A program made the position numbers and the translations under genes. Of a stretch of 64,000 nt of DNA, positions 14 to 37,051 are shown in pieces. The stretch comes from Eledone cirrhosa (lineage: Eukaryota): NCBI GenBank assembly GCA_964016885.1, contig OZ024759.1:17546001-17610000 (forward strand), written 5' to 3'. How positions within the stretch are numbered: the stretch's first letter is position 1; each line of letters starts with the position of its first letter. The notes below the pieces were generated by a model, which saw nothing but the letters and a program-made list of their open reading frames with translations, had not been told where the DNA came from and ran no database searches.

Positions 14-215
14 AGGAAAAAAGTCAGGACCTCGATGGCTGAGCTTCGGCCGTTACGACAGCTGGATCCAAACTCGGGTTCGGATCTAGCTGTTGAAACG
101 GCCGGAGCTCAGCTGTTGGGGTCCTGGTTCTTTTCCTTTTACCCACTCTACTACCCTGAGTATTGAGTACTCTGGTGCGTTATGGTCCACCTGGTATCTT
201 ACCACACCCTCTTTG

Positions 216-217
<2 letters not shown>
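14..217 (+). mobile_element. Fold-back element family P1 with hammerhead 3' half, copy 1
   Basis: Imperfect palindrome at 14..137 plus a unique tail shared with 823..990 and 7881..8076. Flanked by (TA)n on both sides. Confidence 0.75.
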
Positions 218-260
<43 letters not shown>

Positions 261-312
261 TACAAGTAAACAGGTTTAAAAGCTCAAGGATGCATCAAAT
301 ATAAACTTTATT

Positions 313-387
313 CACAAATGACATTTGTTTCAATATCGATCACGAAGACCGAGGTCGGACTCTGTATCGACAGCTCATCAGATGTGT
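313..387 (-). ncRNA. Type I hammerhead ribozyme with extended stem II
   Basis: Minus strand: ACACAT-CTGATGA-GCTGTCGAT...ATCGATATT-GAAA-CAAATG-TC-ATTTGT, followed by AATAAA. The core is intact with a GUC site; stem I has one mismatch. Confidence 0.7.
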
Positions 388-435
388 TGGTTTATATGTG
401 CAGAACACATTCAAACTCACTTACCTACCTCCTGC

Positions 436-467
<32 letters not shown>

Positions 468-611
468 TTATATGATGGGCTTCTGCAGTTCATGTCTAGT
501 AAAATCCACTCACAAATCAGTTAGACGTTTGTTCATATATATAAATATATATATATATATATACATTTATATAAATATATATATATATATTTATATATAT
601 GAACACACACA

Positions 612-656
<45 letters not shown>

Positions 657-786
657 ATATGTGACATATTTTGCGATGCAAGGCATTGTTGATCTTAGGC
701 AAGTCCCTAGCTGGATTAAAAAAACCACATCCGTGATGCTCATACTTAAGTATCATGCAATGGCATTACTTGAGATCGAGTTGCAG

Positions 787-822
<36 letters not shown>

Positions 823-823
<1 letters not shown>

Positions 824-990
824 AAAAGTATGACCCCGACGGCAGAGCTCAAGCCGTTTCGACGGCTATTTCTGGACCCAGAAATAGCCGTCGGGGTCAT
901 ACTTTTTCCTATTTCCCACTCTACTACCCTAAGTATTGAGTACTCTGGTGCGTTATGGTCGATCTGGTTCCTTACCACAATTCCTTTGTT
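823..990 (+). mobile_element. Fold-back element family P1, copy 2 (internal deletion)
   Basis: Palindrome at 823..907 with the same tail (cccactctactaccctaagtattgagtactctggtgcgttatggtc). (TA)n on both sides. Confidence 0.75.
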
Positions 991-1009
991 ATATATATAT
1001 ATATGTGTG

Positions 1010-1220
1010 TATCCCGGGTTCAAAGAGGGGGCGGGGGTGTAACCACTGTAAGAAAGGTACTCAAAGCATAGCAGAGTATAAGTGTTTAATATAGAAATGG
1101 CTTCTACAGGACTGGAACTGTTTCATTCAAAGGAAATCATCATCTTTCCTGGTGATTTCCTTCGAATAAAACAATTCTAGTCCTGTAGAAGCCATTTCTA
1201 TAGCAAACATTTATACTCTG

Positions 1221-1224
<4 letters not shown>
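1010..1224 (-). mobile_element. Fold-back element family P2 (hammerhead-containing), copy 1
   Basis: Imperfect palindrome at about 1068..1224. Arms carry TGATGA/CTGGTGA-TTTC..GAAT-GAAACAG..CTGTA. The tail is homologous to 13134..13200. Confidence 0.7.
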
Positions 1225-1268
<44 letters not shown>

Positions 1269-1271
1269 ACT

Positions 1272-1317
<46 letters not shown>

Positions 1318-1971
1318 GATGAGGATCCTTTTCCAGCAAAGCTCCTCTCTGCCACCACCACTACCATCTTACACCCGTTTACAACCACTGCTACATACAA
1401 TATATCTTGTCTCTTACATTATGATATGTTTTACATTTATAATGACAGCCTTCTTATTAAAAAGACACAGATTAATGGATATTCTAAAGATATGAGAGAT
1501 GCGATATTTGGAAATGCTTAGGCTTAGAAATTGTATTTTCTATTGGACATGGGATATTGGATATTTCACAGTTACAGTTAGAGAAACAATGACAACAATA
1601 ACATCAGCAACAGCAATAATAATGGGAATAACAACAATAACAACAACAACATTATAATAATAATAATGATAATAATAATAATAATGATAATAATAATAAT
1701 AATAATAATAGTAATAATAATAATAGGTGTGAGGAAGACACTCTGTATAGAACGGAAACAATACTGAAGGAAAAGGAAAAAAAACAACAACAATAATAAT
1801 AATAATAGTAATAATAATAATAACAATGGGAGCAAAATGGTGATGATGATTTTATAGCAACATAAACAGAACATCATAATGATAGTAGTAATGATAATAA
1901 TAATAACAATGTCAACATTGGGAGCAACATGGTGGTATTGATGATGATGATGATATAGCAGCATAAAAATA

Positions 1972-2810
1972 ATTGTTTCTACATTTGGCACAAGGCCAGC
2001 AATTACCCAGAGTGCATTACTGGTGCTTTATTTAATCGACCCCCGTAAGGATGAAAGGCAAAGTTAACCTTGGTGGGATTTGAACTCAGAATGGAAAGGG
2101 CCGTGACTCTATGCTGCAAAGCATGGCGTCCGACCCTCTACTGATACTGCCAATCCACCAAAATAATGATAAATAATATTAGTCATAATACCAACAGTGA
2201 GTACAACGTACTGATAATGATATTAACAGTTATAACTGTAAAACTGTAATAATTGTTTCTACTTGTGGCACAAGGCCAGCAATTACCCCAGTGCATTACT
2301 GGTGCTTTATTTTATTGACTTTTGTAAGGATGAAATCTAAAGCTAATCTTGGTGGTATTTGGACTCAGAATGTAAAAGGCCACAAATATATGCCACAAAA
2401 CATGTTGTGGGATGCTCTACTGATATTGCCCAATAGAAATAATAATGGTTCTACTTTTGGCACAAGGCCAGCAATTACCCCAGTGCATTACTGGTACTTT
2501 AATTTATCAACCCCGTAAGGATGAAAGACAAAGTCAACCTCGGCGGGATTTGAACTCAGATCGTAAAGGGACGTAACTATGCTGGAAAGCATGGCGTCCG
2601 ACCCTCTACCGATACTGCCAATAGAAATAATAATGGTTCTACTTTTGGCACAAGGCCAGCAATTACCCCAGTGCATTACTACTACTTTAATTTATCGACC
2701 CCGTAAGGATAAAAGGCGAAGTTAACCTCAGCGAGATTTGAACTCAGAACGTAAAGGGCCATAATTCGATGCCGCAAAGAATGTTGTCAGACACTCTACT
2801 GATACTGCCA
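1972..2810 (-). mobile_element. Cluster of four same-orientation tRNA-derived SINEs (family A)
   Basis: Each copy is about 185 bp on the minus strand: A-box-like TGGCAGTATCGG, B box GAGTTCAAATCC, central GCCTTTCATCCTTACGGGGTCGATAAA, and an (ATT)n tail. Confidence 0.85.
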
Positions 2811-2841
2811 AATAATAATAATGATGGTAATAGATATAATA

Positions 2842-3770
2842 ATTGTTTCTACTTTTGGCACAGGGCCAGCAATTACTCCAGTGTATTACTGGTATTTTAT
2901 TTTATTGACCTCCGTAAGGATAATAATTAATGATAATAATAATAATTGTTTCTACTTTGGGCACAGGGCCAGCAATTACCCCAGTGCATTACTGGTATTT
3001 TATTTTATTGACCTCCGTAAGGATAATAATTAATGATAATAATAATAATTGTTTCTACTTTGGGCACAGGGCCAGCAATTACCCCAGTGCATTACTGGTA
3101 TTTTATTTTATTGACCTCCGTAAGGATAATAATTAATGATAATAATAATAATTGTTTCTACGTTGGGCACAGGGCCAGCAATTACCCCAGTGCATTACTG
3201 GTATTTTATTTTATTGACCTCCGTAAGGATAATAATTAATGATAATAATAATAATTGTTTCTACTTTGGGCACAGGGCCAGCAATTACCCCAGTGCATTA
3301 CTGGTATTTTATTTTATTGACCTCCGTAAGGATAATAATTAATGATAATAATAATAATTGTTTCTACTTTGGGCACAGGGCCAGCAATTACCCCAGTGCA
3401 TTACTGGTATTTTATTTTATTGACCTCCGTAAGGATAATAATTAATGATAATAATAATAATTGTTTCTACTTTGGGCACAGGGCCAGCAATTACCCCAGT
3501 GCATTACTGGTATTTTATTTTATTGACCTCCGTAAGGATAATAATTAATGATAATAATAATAATTGTTTCTACTTTGGGCACAGGGCCAGCAATTACCCC
3601 AGTGCATTACTGGTATTTTATTTTATTGACCTCCGTAAGGATAATAATTAATGATAATAATAATAATTGTTTCTACTTTGGGCACAGGGCCAGCAATTAC
3701 CCCAGTGCATTACTGGTATTTTATTTTATTGACCTCCGTAAGGATAATAATTAATGATAATAATAATTGT
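2842..3770. repeat. 103-bp tandem repeat (~9 copies) derived from the SINE A 3' half
   Basis: The unit attgtttctactttgggcacagggccagcaattacccc...ccgtaaggataataattaatgataataataata recurs every 103 nt and is almost invariant. Confidence 0.95.
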
Positions 3771-4002
3771 AATAGTGATGCTTTCTTTTATTGGCCTTAG
3801 TGGGATTATTGGGGACAGTACAAAAGCTCAAATACAAGGGGAAAAGGGAAAATACAAACAAAAAACAGTGTGTATGTGTGTATATTTACATCGAGTGAAA
3901 GATTAAGATTACCGAAACAATAAACAGTACAATAATCAATAATGATAAACAACAATAATAGAACAATAACAACAACAACAACAACAACCATAATAATAAT
4001 AA

Positions 4003-4765
4003 TTTGTTTCTGATTTCGGTACAAGGCCGACAATTTTAGGGGAAGGGAAAGAGTCAATTAAATCGTACTTTATTTTATCAATCTTGTAAAGATGAAAACC
4101 AAAGTTAACCTCAGCGGGAGGATTTGAACTCGGAGCGTAAAGAGCCGTGACTCTATGCCGCAAAGCATGTTACCCAACGCTCTACCGATACTGCCAATCC
4201 ACCGCTCTTAACAACAGTGTTAATAATAATGATAATAATTGTTTCTACTTTTGGCACAAGGCCAGCAATTATCCCAGTGCATTACTGGTACTTTATTTTA
4301 TCGACCCCATAGGGATGAAAGGCAAAGTTAACCTCAGTGGGATTTGAATTCAGACCGTAAGGGACCGCAACTCTATGCTGCAAAGCATGGCGTCCGACCC
4401 TCTACCGATACTGCCAAAATAATAATGGTTTCTGATTAAGGCACAAGGCCAACAACTTTTGGGGAGGAGAAAATCGCATAAAATGACCCGAGTGCGTTAC
4501 TGGTACTTTATTTTATTGTCCCCATATGGATGAAAGACAAAGCTAACCTTGGTGAGAATTAAACTAAAAAATAATAATAACAATTGTTTCTACTTTAGGC
4601 ACAAGGCCAGCAATTTGAAGGGGAGAGGGGAAAGTCAATTAAATCGACCCCAGTGCATTACTGGTGCTTTAATTTGGTGGGATTTGAACTCAGATCATAA
4701 AGGGCCATAACTCTATACTGCGAAGCAGGGTGTTTGGCACTCTACCGATGCTGTCAATCCACCAC
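4003..4765 (-). mobile_element. SINE A cluster (4 copies, some truncated)
   Basis: Same B box and core motifs as family A. Confidence 0.8.
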
Positions 4766-5168
4766 CCAATTTTGGCACAAGCCTAGCAATAATAATAATA
4801 ATAATAGACTCACAAATTTGTCACAGCCTCATTTCATTCCCACCCCTCAGTTAAAATTTTATCTGTTTACACATATTTTTGATTGTCATGTGCACTTATA
4901 TAGGTCCAAATTAATATTTACACACATTTAAAAGGGTGTTTATAGATCACAATGATGATTATATATATATATATATATTATGTTGGTTAAGTGTCTAACT
5001 GCAGTTACAGGCAGTGCACCATTCGAAGCACTCAATGCTATTACAAATGTCCAAGGAAGAGTCAGGCCCTGGTCATTGGGATTGCACCCTGTACTGATTG
5101 ATATTGAAACAATTGTAATATACCAATAAAATTTATATATATGCTGCAACAGTGACTGCAATCCTACT

Positions 5169-5203
<35 letters not shown>

Positions 5204-5206
<3 letters not shown>

Positions 5207-5288
5207 TTCCTGATGACGAAAGGCCTTCTCCATGTGTTCCATTCGGTAACCATGTTTATTCCCTTTCAGAAACTAATTAGTTGGAGTG
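5204..5288 (+). ncRNA. Type I hammerhead ribozyme with long stem II insert
   Basis: TACTTC-CTGATGA-C GAAAGG...CCTTTC A-GAAA-CTAATTAG-TT-GGAGTG. Stem I is 6 bp including wobbles, stem III is the palindrome ACTAATTAGT, and the site is GUU. Confidence 0.7.
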
Positions 5289-5486
5289 AAATTTTAGTAA
5301 GTAAGTTAACTTTTATAATTTTCTTATTTTACGTCTTTCATATATATATATATAGGAATTCCGTACTTCTAATGAAATATGGTATGTTTATAAATAAACA
5401 TTTAGTAAGCTATAGCTTTGCAAAAACACCAGCAGTTATTGCCACCTGGCAGTCAGTGTTCAGCAGAAGCAAGGGGGGGGACAAAT

Positions 5487-5526
5487 GCTAATGCATTTTG
5501 AACTGAACTGGTTCTCATCAGGATGA
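5487..5526 (-). ncRNA. Degenerate minimal hammerhead
   Basis: Minus strand: CTGATGA-GAAC(CAGTTCA)GTTC-AAAA-TGCATT. It has G12->A, the palindrome AATGCATT and a poor stem I. Confidence 0.4.
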
Positions 5527-5573
5527 CCCCTCCCACTCTTGCAACTGCTGGACTTTGACAACAGGCAAGGGTG

Positions 5574-5605
<32 letters not shown>

Positions 5606-5665
5606 CACATATAATTATACACACACACACACACACACACACAAATATATATATATATATACAAG

Positions 5666-5702
<37 letters not shown>

Positions 5703-5744
5703 GAAAACGAAAAATCAGTGATGCATCTGGACTCAATTTATTGT

Positions 5745-5832
5745 GAGTTACAACTGTTTCTCCGGCAGACAGCTCGAGACAGGATCATTGTATGGGTCTG
5801 TCTGATTCTGCAACTGCAGGTTCGTCGGACAC
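5745..5832 (-). ncRNA. Degenerate hammerhead with long stem II
   Basis: Minus strand: GTGT-CCGACGA-ACCTGCAG...CTGCCGGA-GAAAC-AGTT-GTA-ACTC, then AATAAA. The core has a U4->C change. Confidence 0.45.
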
Positions 5833-6085
5833 TTCCAATAACTTCGGAAGAAATATTCTCACTGGGGTTTTAGGCTTAAAAAAAACTCCTTCCTCGCTTG
5901 TACCACACTCTGCTCTGTAAGAACATCGAGTGCTTAACTGGCATACCATCTATGTAAGCATCATAGCTACCATTAAAACACACACACACACACACACAGT
6001 ATTTACGTATCGAGAGAGAGAGAAAAAAAAGGGGGAGGATAGGTGATACATATAGTTATTTGTAAGGAACACTTTTGATTATTTA

Positions 6086-6127
6086 TGCCCTTGAGAAGCC
6101 CAACTGGGTGAAACGTACGTAGGTGCT
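6086..6127 (+). ncRNA. Minimal type I hammerhead, U3-A8 core variant
   Basis: GCCC-TTGAGAA-GCCC(AACT)GGGT-GAAA-CGTACG-TA-GG(T)GC. Stem III is the palindrome ACGTACGT. C3-G8 is replaced by the covarying pair U3-A8. Confidence 0.6.
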
Positions 6128-6314
6128 GTTTTAAATAAACATGTTTTAACGGTCTATTCTCCGATTTCTTACTTTCCCACATATATATATATACAGACAC
6201 GCTCACATATATATACAGACTTGCTCACATATATATTCATACATGCTCACATATATACTCACACACACACATATATATATATATGACAATAGACAATATG
6301 CCCCCACACCCCCC

Positions 6315-6583
6315 ACCGCAATGTGGTCGTGGAGGTGCCACGGCAAAAAAGCACCCAGCCCACTCTGTAAAGTGGAAGTGTAGGCGCCACGAAAAAGCAC
6401 CCAGCACTCTACTGTAAATGAGGTTGGTGTTAGGAAGGGCATCCAGCTGTAGAAATCAAGCCAGATCAGTTCCTGTATGAGCAAGGCATGGTCAGCCGAC
6501 CAGATACTGCCCACAGCAGGACAACCCGTCTAACCCATGCTAGCGTGGAAGAACGGACGTAAAACGGTGATGATGATGATGAT
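6315..6583 (+). mobile_element. SINE family B (RTE-like 3' tail ending in (TGA)n)
   Basis: GGAAGGGCATCCAGCTGTAG core and aacccatgctagcgtggaagaacggacgtaaaacggtgatgatg tail. Near-identical to 35292..35560 (-) and 46765..47031 (+). Confidence 0.8.
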
Positions 6584-6790
6584 GGGTGAGAGATGTAGAA
6601 GATGTGATATCCAAAGATGTGGAGAGAACTCAAACTTGTGAGAAGAGTTATAATGTAGTTTAAAAATTCACCATATACAAGTTTCAGAGCTACACCAATA
6701 TGTCTAATTTATTTTACAAAACTTTTGCCTGGGGATAGATTAGACATATCTGTCTGATGTTGGAACATGTGTAGCATGTTGGACTCCTTT

Positions 6791-6824
<34 letters not shown>

Positions 6825-6847
6825 CACACATGTGTATATGTGTGTGG

Positions 6848-6882
<35 letters not shown>

Positions 6883-7095
6883 ACTCTCTCTCTCTCTCCC
6901 CCCACACTCTCTCTCTCTCTCTCTCTCTCTCTCCCCCACTCTCTCTCCCTCCCCCACTCTTTCTCCCTCCCCACTCTCTCTCCCTCCCCCACTCTCTCTC
7001 CCTCCCCCACTCTCTCTCTCTCTCCCCCACTCTCTCTCTCTCCCCCACTCTCTCTCTCCCCCACTCTCTCTCCCTCTCCCACTCTCTCTCTCTCT

Positions 7096-7131
<36 letters not shown>

Positions 7132-7142
7132 TTATGAATGAA

Positions 7143-7187
<45 letters not shown>

Positions 7188-7587
7188 GAATGAATATTAT
7201 GAATGAATATGTGTGTATATATATATATATGTGTGTATATATGTATATATTGTGTATATATTTATGTGTATATATGTATATACATGTGTATATATGTATA
7301 TATATGTGTGTATATATGTCTATATAGTATTTAATATGATAATGCTGTCTGGAAGTAAGAACGCAACATCTATAACAAAAAGCTCATAGAAACTTAAAGA
7401 ATTGTTTCTTTTGATGAGAGATGCACAGAGAGTTCTATATTGTTATCACCATTGCCGTGACTACTACCACTACCACTATCACTGCACTCATACCACTTTG
7501 GAAGAAGAATCAGGATGGAGAGAGAGGTGCTGTACCCCAGCAAGTTTTATGAAAGGTGGGTGAAAGTGGCGAGAATGGCCCGAGTGA

Positions 7588-7856
7588 ATGGGCCTTCTCT
7601 CTATATCAGCCTGTAGGTTGAGGAAAAGGAGGAGGAGAGGAAAGGAGTACAAGCTCTTCGTACTCCTGGAGATGAGGGTTGCACATTTTTTTTTCGGGGG
7701 TATGTGTTACCCATATAAACTGTCTCCCTCTATTGGGGAAAATCGACTAACTTTTAAATTCCATCTGTGATAACATTTTACACGTTTTTATTGTATGTAA
7801 ACTTCCCCCTTTGTATTTGTCCCCTTCTTTTGTGCCCCTGTGGCTAATAAAGAAAT
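7588..7856 (+). mobile_element. 3' end of a non-LTR retroelement (second copy at 48240..48350, minus strand)
   Basis: About 108 bp essentially identical in reverse complement to 48240..48350. Ends in AATAAAGAAAT followed by a microsatellite. Confidence 0.6.
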
Positions 7857-7880
7857 ATATCATGTATATATATTTATATA

Positions 7881-8074
7881 TAGGAAAATGTTCAATACCT
7901 CGACAGCAGAGCTCAAGCTGTTTCGACAACTATTTCTGGACTGAAATAGCCGTTGATACGGCTTGAGCTCTGCTGTCGGGGTCTTGAACATTTTCCTATT
8001 ACCCACTCTACTACCTAAGTATTGAGTACTCTGATGCGTTATGGTCCATCTGGTTCCTAACAACACTTCCTTTG

Positions 8075-8076
<2 letters not shown>
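7881..8076 (+). mobile_element. Fold-back element family P1, copy 3
   Basis: Palindrome at 7881..7998 with the same tail and (TA)n flanks. Confidence 0.75.
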
Positions 8077-8113
<37 letters not shown>

Positions 8114-13013: not shown

Positions 13014-13015
<2 letters not shown>

Positions 13016-13199
13016 TTTTAATATAGATGAGATTCTACAGGACTAGAACTGTTTCATTCATTAGAAATCATCCTGATGATTTCTAATGAATGAAACAGTT
13101 CTAGTCCTGTAGAATCTCATCTATATTAAAACTTTTATACTCTGCTATGTATTGAGTACCTTACTTACTGTGGTTACCTCCGATTCAACCCGGAATAAC

Positions 13200-36912: not shown

Positions 36913-37051
36913 TATTTATTGTTAGCACAGATTAAAAGTTTAAGCAAACAATTTCTGATTTCTCTCTAAAGCGACATCTTCAGAAGATCTCGCTTTAGGG
37001 TGAAATCCGACATTGTTTGCTTAAACTTTTAATCTGCGCTAACAATAAATA
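36913..37051. mobile_element. Fold-back element family P3 (hammerhead-like core at the apex)
   Basis: About 68-bp imperfect arms centred on atcttcagaagat (CTGAAGA on the minus strand), with GAAA after a short stem. Related non-palindromic fragments lie at about 19683..19750 and 31520..31550. Confidence 0.6.

What the first reader, a model, noticed from the sequence alone, without database searches (positions are those of the whole stretch)
14..8076. Family P1: palindromes whose apex appears to be hammerhead stem II
Seen: three copies (14, 823, 7881) are hairpins. Combined across copies, the arm reads GAAAC-GGC..GCC-GTC-GGGGTC, which is hammerhead GAAA, stem III, a GUC site and the 3' strand of stem I. 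The apex (e.g. GACGGCTATTTCTGGACCCAGAAATAGCCGTC) sits exactly where stem II belongs. The CUGANGA half is absent and replaced by the inverted copy. Inference: cDNA or second-strand synthesis folded back on the ribozyme's own stem II and self-primed. This would be a concrete mechanism for the inverted pseudo-LTRs known in Penelope-like elements.
Basis: partly seen in the sequence, partly recalled or inferred. Interest (0 to 1): 0.8.

Follow-up and report, generated by a model that had tools for sequence, protein, structure and literature searches.

The report
Penelope palindromes mark the RNA start
These three small mirror-image sequences are stubs of a very common Penelope-type jumping gene, and their halves meet not on the ribozyme hairpin but at a fixed base carrying an extra G, which likely marks the capped start of the element's RNA and suggests that two copies of that RNA start were joined head to head.

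Summary
The three hairpins are real and belong to a family with at least 10,364 copies. Long copies run into a Hydra-clade Penelope-like element: RT plus C-terminal GIY-YIG, a 3.07-kb pLTR-ORF-pLTR unit, inserted in (TA)n. The proposed mechanism fails: the stem-II fold-back product has 0 genome-wide hits. Instead, 118 of 155 mapped arm ends cluster within -5..+9 of one A at the 3' end of loop II. That A sits in an initiator-like motif about 30 nt after a TATA-like box. An untemplated G often precedes it (2,962 G versus 367 A; only 7 continue on the template). Either arm may be the longer one (26 versus 24). The arms match in subfamily (50 of 51), and only the direct arm has the tail. Best reading, inferred: two cDNAs primed at two start sites run off the capped 5' end of one RNA and are joined. 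The architecture is known; I found no such junction evidence in the papers searched.

The parts
14..75 (-). Copy 1 inverted arm: runs from the proximal 3' end back to +1 of its subfamily, plus one extra base (75) that reads G on this strand
   Evidence: subfamily template from L048 and L198
78..137 (+). Copy 1 direct arm from +2 (76-77 filler): 3' strand of stem II, GAAAC at 95-99, stem III, cut triplet GTT at 115-117, 3' strand of stem I
138..218 (+). Copy 1 tail (~80 nt, between the two 3' ends of the family), followed by (TA)n
820..877 (-). Copy 2 inverted arm, ending at +2; carries the complete 3' half of the hammerhead on the minus strand
878..911 (+). Copy 2 direct arm from +4, with a 23-nt deletion between two GCCGTC direct repeats (GAAAC and stem III lost)
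   Evidence: one search compared with long copies
912..991 (+). Copy 2 tail, followed by (TA)n and a stub of a second family (P2)
7881..7942 (-). Copy 3 inverted arm, ending at +1
7943..7998 (+). Copy 3 direct arm from +7; GAAAC mutated to GATAC at 7955-7959, GTC at 7975-7977; the same junction recurs in L078, L118, L137 and L158
7999..8077 (+). Copy 3 tail, followed by (TA)n

Best explanation
P1 copies are short insertions of a Hydra-type Penelope-like retroelement, and each palindrome is likely two cDNAs of the 5' end of one capped RNA joined head to head. Shown: the parent element, the hammerhead, two fixed 3' ends about 80 nt apart, a fixed 5' stop at one A with an untemplated G before it, symmetric arm lengths, subfamily-matched arms, and the tail on one arm only. 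Inferred steps: (1) a TATA-like box and initiator nested in hammerhead stem-loop II start a capped RNA at that A, so the RNA's 5' end holds only the 3' half of the ribozyme, and a whole ribozyme forms only in read-through RNA at the 3' pLTR; (2) the enzyme nicks both strands of a (TA)n target and starts reverse transcription at two internal sites, about 60 and 140 nt from the cap; (3) each cDNA runs off the cap and often copies it as an extra base; (4) the two 3' ends are joined by a template jump or by end-joining, with small trims, fillers or microhomology.
For: Parent: L160 is a 3,068-bp pLTR-ORF-pLTR unit with RWR, DKT, YRDDG, CxCX5C, YIG and N..CxH motifs; weak Pfam GIY-YIG hit (E 0.0018, below cut-off, 1 of 4 fragments). 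Two 3' ends: many long direct copies stop at the proximal end, others carry the tail. In the first 100 of 10,364 tail hits, 64 of 87 mapped direct ends and 54 of 68 inverted ends lie at -5..+9. The base before +1 is G in 15 of 23 arms ending there, against 18 of 79 for ends at +2..+12 (p=3e-4). Genome-wide: G 2,962, A 367, G with template continuing 7, T/C with template continuing 2,143. The base before +2 is G in only 19 of the first 100 of 2,727. Symmetry: inverted longer 26, equal 11, direct longer 24 of 61; only 4 of 61 fit simple fold-back of the tailed cDNA. Junctions with G on both arms and one A/T between: L075, L131, L205 (P1) and L200-L203 (P2). Arms match in subfamily in 50 of 51, against 34.5 expected. 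The inverted arm stops at the proximal end in 55 of 56, and the one flagged exception is flanking repeat. Family P2 has TATAAATA 30 nt before its stop base in 9 of 11 long copies and G before it in 76 of the first 100 of 2,536 non-template hits. A purified PLE protein cuts and extends both strands, starts at two internal sites bounding the tail, and is predicted to be a dimer (PMC11167929). An untemplated 5' G is read as cap copying in L1 and SVA (PMC4859970).
Against: No RNA data bear on the start site, so the cap and the promoter are inferred from DNA alone. The P1 box reads TATTTA, one mismatch from the recalled TATA consensus. Some G(-1) come from the partner arm by overlap (2 of 15 in the P1 sample; at least 4 of 13 P2 rows inspected). 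Ends are spread: +2, +5 and +7 are about as common as +1. Matched arms are also what fold-back or later gene conversion would give. Long perfect palindromes can lose their centres after insertion, which could create the symmetry. 13 of the 100 hits had no mappable direct arm. The sample is the first 49 Mb of one contig and is restricted to copies with an exact tail match.
Confidence: 0.6

Rival explanations
1. One cDNA runs off the RNA 5' end, snaps back using a few terminal bases, and copies itself; the hairpin is then cut at the proximal site and its centre erodes over time.
For: Arms match in 50 of 51; 13 of 61 junctions have 2 nt or more of overlap; a few apices sit on the loop III palindrome (L114, L142, L156); self-priming was proposed in PMC3846280.
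Against: The inverted arm is the longer one in 26 of 61; only 4 of 61 fit directly. Junctions with both arms full length, G on each and 1 nt between leave no room for a loop. The proximal end is also the end of ordinary direct copies.
Confidence: 0.2
2. Two cDNAs are joined, but the fixed stop is not a capped transcription start. It is a processed RNA end or a structural block, and the G reflects the enzyme's preference for adding C at template ends.
For: No RNA evidence either way; loop II can form an inner hairpin near +1; in P2 the stop is the first base of stem I.
Against: The G excess is specific to the base before +1. The stop has TATA-initiator spacing in two families where it falls in different parts of the ribozyme. 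The hammerhead cut site is not a hot spot (1 of 89 direct arms at +42).
Confidence: 0.13
3. The palindromes are a non-autonomous element that copies itself whole (MITE-like or retrozyme-like).
For: High copy number; one junction recurs in copy 3 and four sampled loci from different subfamilies.
Against: 53 distinct junction types in 61 copies; asymmetric tail; the sequence is continuous with an RT-endonuclease ORF; the recurring junction has microhomology.
Confidence: 0.04
4. One reading: the cDNA folds back on hammerhead stem II and self-primes.
For: Junctions lie just 5' of the 3' strand of stem II; a real 9-bp stem II exists.
Against: The predicted product has 0 genome-wide matches; 0 of 87 direct arms start on the 5' strand; uninverted copies stop at the same site; other families mostly have the apex upstream of the core.
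Confidence: 0.02

Closest known systems
Hydra clade of C-terminal EN+ Penelope-like elements (Craig et al. 2021, PMC8557442; passages, section 11 and supplement files S1-S2 read)
   Same: RT followed by GIY-YIG; DKT; RW[K/R]; CxCX5C linker; CxxC and CxH around E and N; (TA)n targets; type I hammerhead near the 3' end; 5'-truncated inverted copy; tail at one end.
   Different: Core mostly U3-A8, whereas every Hydra hammerhead in File S2 is CUGANGA; loop II of 31-33 nt; tail ~80 nt against 30-40; unit 3.07 kb against mostly under 3 kb. The hammerhead differs from that of Hydra-1_Obim, so this is another family.
Inverted pLTRs with junction palindromes in Adineta vaga Penelope (Arkhipova et al. 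2013, PMC3846280; passages read)
   Same: Head-to-head inverted pLTR, optional tail, TATA plus Inr-like motif noted in the pLTR.
   Different: That paper proposes self-priming, probably on an antisense template. Here the junction statistics point to a sense RNA 5' end and two cDNAs.
Poseidon of Anolis in vitro (Frangieh et al. 2024, PMC11167929; parts 1-2 of 4 read)
   Same: Two internal RT start sites that bound the tail, AT-rich cleavage, both strands cut and extended, hammerhead cutting not needed for insertion.
   Different: Different clade; the parts read do not deal with the 5' junction or with inverted copies.
U3-A8 hammerheads of Schistosoma Cercyon PLEs (Cervera and de la Pena 2014, PMC4209133; parts 1-2 of 4 read)
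   Same: U3-A8 core, long helix II, extra base at the 5' end of stem II, pairs of motifs on opposite strands.
   Different: P1 has a 4-bp stem III with a 9-nt loop rather than a minimal one, and a putative promoter inside loop II.
L1 twin priming and cap-derived 5' G (reviewed in PMC4859970; passages read)
   Same: Two primed cDNAs giving a 5' inversion; untemplated G at complete 5' ends.
   Different: In L1 the two cDNAs copy different parts of the RNA (recalled); here both copy the same 60 nt.

Membership tests
EN+ Penelope-like element | RT with C-terminal GIY-YIG endonuclease in one ORF | tested here: met
   RT and EN motifs in order in L159-L162; the ORF is broken by stops and frameshifts in these copies; weak Pfam GIY-YIG
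EN+ Penelope-like element | pLTR from partial tandem, inverted 5'-truncated copy, tail at one end | tested here: met
   L160
Hydra clade | DKT, RWK, CxCX5C linker, CxxC and CxH around E and N | tested here: met
   RWK reads RWR; DKT and RWR seen in L160 only, the others in 3-5 of 6 long loci
Hydra clade | No CCHH motif in the endonuclease | tested here: met
   No Y.I.C..C match in 6 long loci; one Cys before YIG
Hydra clade | (TA)n insertion | tested here: met
   96 of 100 tails are followed by (TA)3 or more
Hydra clade | Canonical hammerhead | tested here: inconclusive
   Type I fold present, but the core is U3-A8 in 1,500 hits and canonical in 4
Hydra clade | Placement in an RT tree | not tested
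   No reference proteins were fetched
Type I hammerhead ribozyme | Three stems around conserved core boxes, 3-8 pair, NUH cut site | tested here: met
   L056 minimum-energy fold (z -1.9; 9 of 200 shuffles as good); C3-G8 and U3-A8 both occur; L165 folds differently in stems II-III
Type I hammerhead ribozyme | Self-cleavage | not testable with these tools
   No assay; the cut site is not a truncation hot spot
DNA transposon / MITE | Terminal inverted repeats at both ends, fixed internal sequence, TSD | tested here: not met
   Tail on one side only; 53 junction types in 61; a TSD cannot be read in (TA)n
Non-LTR retrozyme | Tandem monomers each with a complete type I hammerhead | tested here: not met
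   Short copies are head to head and lack the 5' core

The most novel reading that the evidence does not exclude
Thousands of P1 and P2 palindromes are a fossil record of how Penelope-like elements make inverted pLTRs: a dimeric enzyme twin-primes both target strands on one capped sense RNA, both cDNAs copy the cap, and they are fused through a one-base overhang. In P1 the core promoter sits inside the ribozyme's stem-loop II, so the start site decides whether an RNA carries a whole or a half hammerhead.
Probability: 0.4. Interest if true: 0.7.

Novelty: new member of a known kind. Interest (0 to 1): 0.48.

Why it matters
How PLEs build head-to-head inverted ends is listed as open in PMC8557442, and the printed proposal (self-priming, probably on an antisense template, PMC3846280) was drawn from few copies. 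Here a large natural sample gives base-level constraints: a fixed 5' stop with an untemplated G, on either or both arms. That favours a sense, capped template and two cDNAs, and it can be tested with the published in vitro PLE system. It also offers a way to map PLE start sites from DNA alone. The element class and its insertion shape are known, which limits the surprise.

Tried and rejected
Rfam scan: no hammerhead among the 150 rows listed of 242. Pfam: 3 of 4 ORF fragments gave nothing. Sequencing runs: no RNA holder listed, so no reads were laid and this is no evidence either way. The first junction mapping, with gapped alignment, over-extended some arms and was redone ungapped (one search failed). 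The reference ends at +45 and cannot see ends at the cut site, so that count comes. The first arm-concordance script matched the wrong segment; its concordance and tail figures are discarded in favour. Loci were left out of junction counts because the queries selected for arm length. Considered and rejected: a 3' splice site at TTTAG (copies keep the AG and stop before it); G(-1) as a subfamily variant (7 of 2,962 continue on the template); hammerhead cleavage as the 5' end; MITE; Naiad (the endonuclease is C-terminal). Literature: eight searches showed no paper, among the listings and passages seen, that ties PLE palindrome apices to a capped start. The library lacks most subscription journals, and supplements of PMC11167929, PMC3846280 and PMC4209133 were not read and may bear on this. 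The host species was not determined; 'Octopus' was used as a search term only because the repeats looked familiar (recalled).
Full report
Observation. The window holds three copies of the family, at 14-218, 820-991 and 7881-8077, and no others. Each is a hairpin of 88-124 nt plus a shared tail of about 80 nt, set between (TA)n runs. The hairpins fold far better than shuffles (z -9.6 to -17.4).

The family. The window lies in a 3.0-Gb assembly. An exact 33-nt tail pattern has 10,364 matches and its reversed control has 0. Copies that extend upstream run through a 3' UTR into a reading frame with RT and GIY-YIG motifs. L160 is a whole pLTR-ORF-pLTR unit of 3,068 bp with a short inverted stub at its 5' side. 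Its motifs (RWR, DKT, YRDDG, CxCX5C, YIG, N..CxH, with an intact CxxC before E in four other long loci, and no CxxC inside the endonuclease core) are those that PMC8557442 gives for the Hydra clade, and 96 of 100 tails end in (TA)n. No tree was built. The family has two fixed 3' ends, one at TTTTCCTA and one about 80 nt further on. This matches the PLE 'tail', which in vitro lies between two RT start sites (PMC11167929).

The ribozyme. Long copies carry the missing half: ACCCC, a TTGA(A/C)AA core, and a 9-bp stem II closed by a 31-33-nt loop. L056 folds as a type I three-way junction. This is the U3-A8 variant described for Schistosoma PLEs (PMC4209133); it has 1,500 exact hits. The hammerhead identification therefore holds.

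Where the halves meet. I took the first 100 tail hits, which are unselected for 5' structure, and numbered the A of TTT-A-GTCC, 7 nt before the 3' strand of stem II, as +1. Of 87 mappable direct arms, 64 start at -5..+9, 6 run past -40, and none starts at -40..-30; of 68 inverted arms, 54 end at -5..+9. Thirteen hits had no mappable direct arm. Fold-back on stem II must keep the whole loop at the apex, and that junction has 0 exact matches genome-wide. Copies without an inverted arm stop at the same place (15 of 26 within -7..+9). The hammerhead cut site is not a hot spot (1 of 89). In three other hammerhead-bearing palindrome families mined from the same loci, the apex most often lies at or upstream of the core box.

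What the stop is. Arms ending exactly at +1 are preceded by G in 15 of 23 cases, against 18 of 79 for ends at +2..+12. Genome-wide, G precedes +1 in 2,962 matches and A in 367; only 7 G copies continue on the upstream template, while 2,143 T/C copies do. Before +2, G is 19 of the first 100. Untemplated 5' G is read as cap copying in L1 and SVA (PMC4859970). The +1 A lies in an initiator-like motif (consensus recalled), 29-31 nt after TATTTA in 23 of 24 long copies matched; this is one inherited feature, not 23 observations. That box overlaps the 5' strand of stem II. Family P2 shows the same pattern with a perfect TATAAATA 30 nt upstream, a stop at the first base of stem I, and G in 76 of the first 100 non-template hits; at least 4 of 13 inspected P2 rows could take their G from the partner arm, but none continues on the template. 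D. virilis Penelope has an internal promoter in its pLTR (PMC2377424). Window copy 1 fits: its inverted arm ends at its subfamily's +1 with the extra G; copy 2 ends at +2/+4 and copy 3 at +1/+7. No RNA run was available, so the capped start remains an inference.

How the halves are joined. Among 61 copies with both arms mapped, the inverted arm reaches further in 26, the direct arm in 24, and they tie in 11. A tailed cDNA folding on itself needs the direct arm longer and an overlap; 4 of 61 fit, and 5 show the mirror case. Twenty-eight have filler bases. Seven junctions carry G on both arms with one A/T between (three P1, four P2; five of them were fetched because their coordinates suggested it), which leaves no loop for self-priming. 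The arms match in subfamily in 50 of 51, and the inverted arm stops at the proximal end in 55 of 56, the exception being a false flag. There are 53 junction types in 61 copies, so the palindromes form afresh at each insertion. The simplest account is twin priming: both target strands are nicked and extended, as shown in vitro for another PLE; one cDNA starts at each internal site on the same RNA, both run off its 5' end, and their 3' ends are fused. Fold-back at the RNA end followed by erosion of the centre is the main rival.

Relation to what is known. The insertion shape, the clade, the U3-A8 core and a self-priming proposal are all in print. Eight literature searches showed nothing linking the apex to a capped start, within a library that lacks most subscription journals. 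Earlier AI notes on other genomes reach similar readings; I had stated mine beforehand, and they are not evidence.

Noticed in passing
window 1068-1224 and 13014-13133: Family P2: palindromes with a canonical hammerhead whose stem I varies in step between subfamilies; 27,663 exact hits of a 27-mer. Link to an ORF not checked.
   Followed up: partly
window 36913-37051; L008:1715-1884: Two further palindrome families with hammerhead-like cores, apex at or upstream of the core box.
   Followed up: no
window 19908 (+), about 6090 (+), 5210 (+), 381 (-): Other hammerhead-like motifs beside (TA)n; the one near 6090 also reads U3-A8.
   Followed up: no
window 2836-3767: Nine near-identical 103-bp tandem units cut from a SINE-like repeat that also forms 188-bp units at 2247-2828.
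   Followed up: no
L165, L166, L169: Small P1 subfamily with a canonical C3-G8 core, a natural pair for comparing ribozyme activity.
   Followed up: partly
L033:2011-3084: A 358-codon open frame with PLE-like thumb and GIY-YIG motifs of another type, directly after a P1 end.
   Followed up: no
rows: Arms that start at +2 are preceded by T in 53 of the first 100; unexplained.
   Followed up: no
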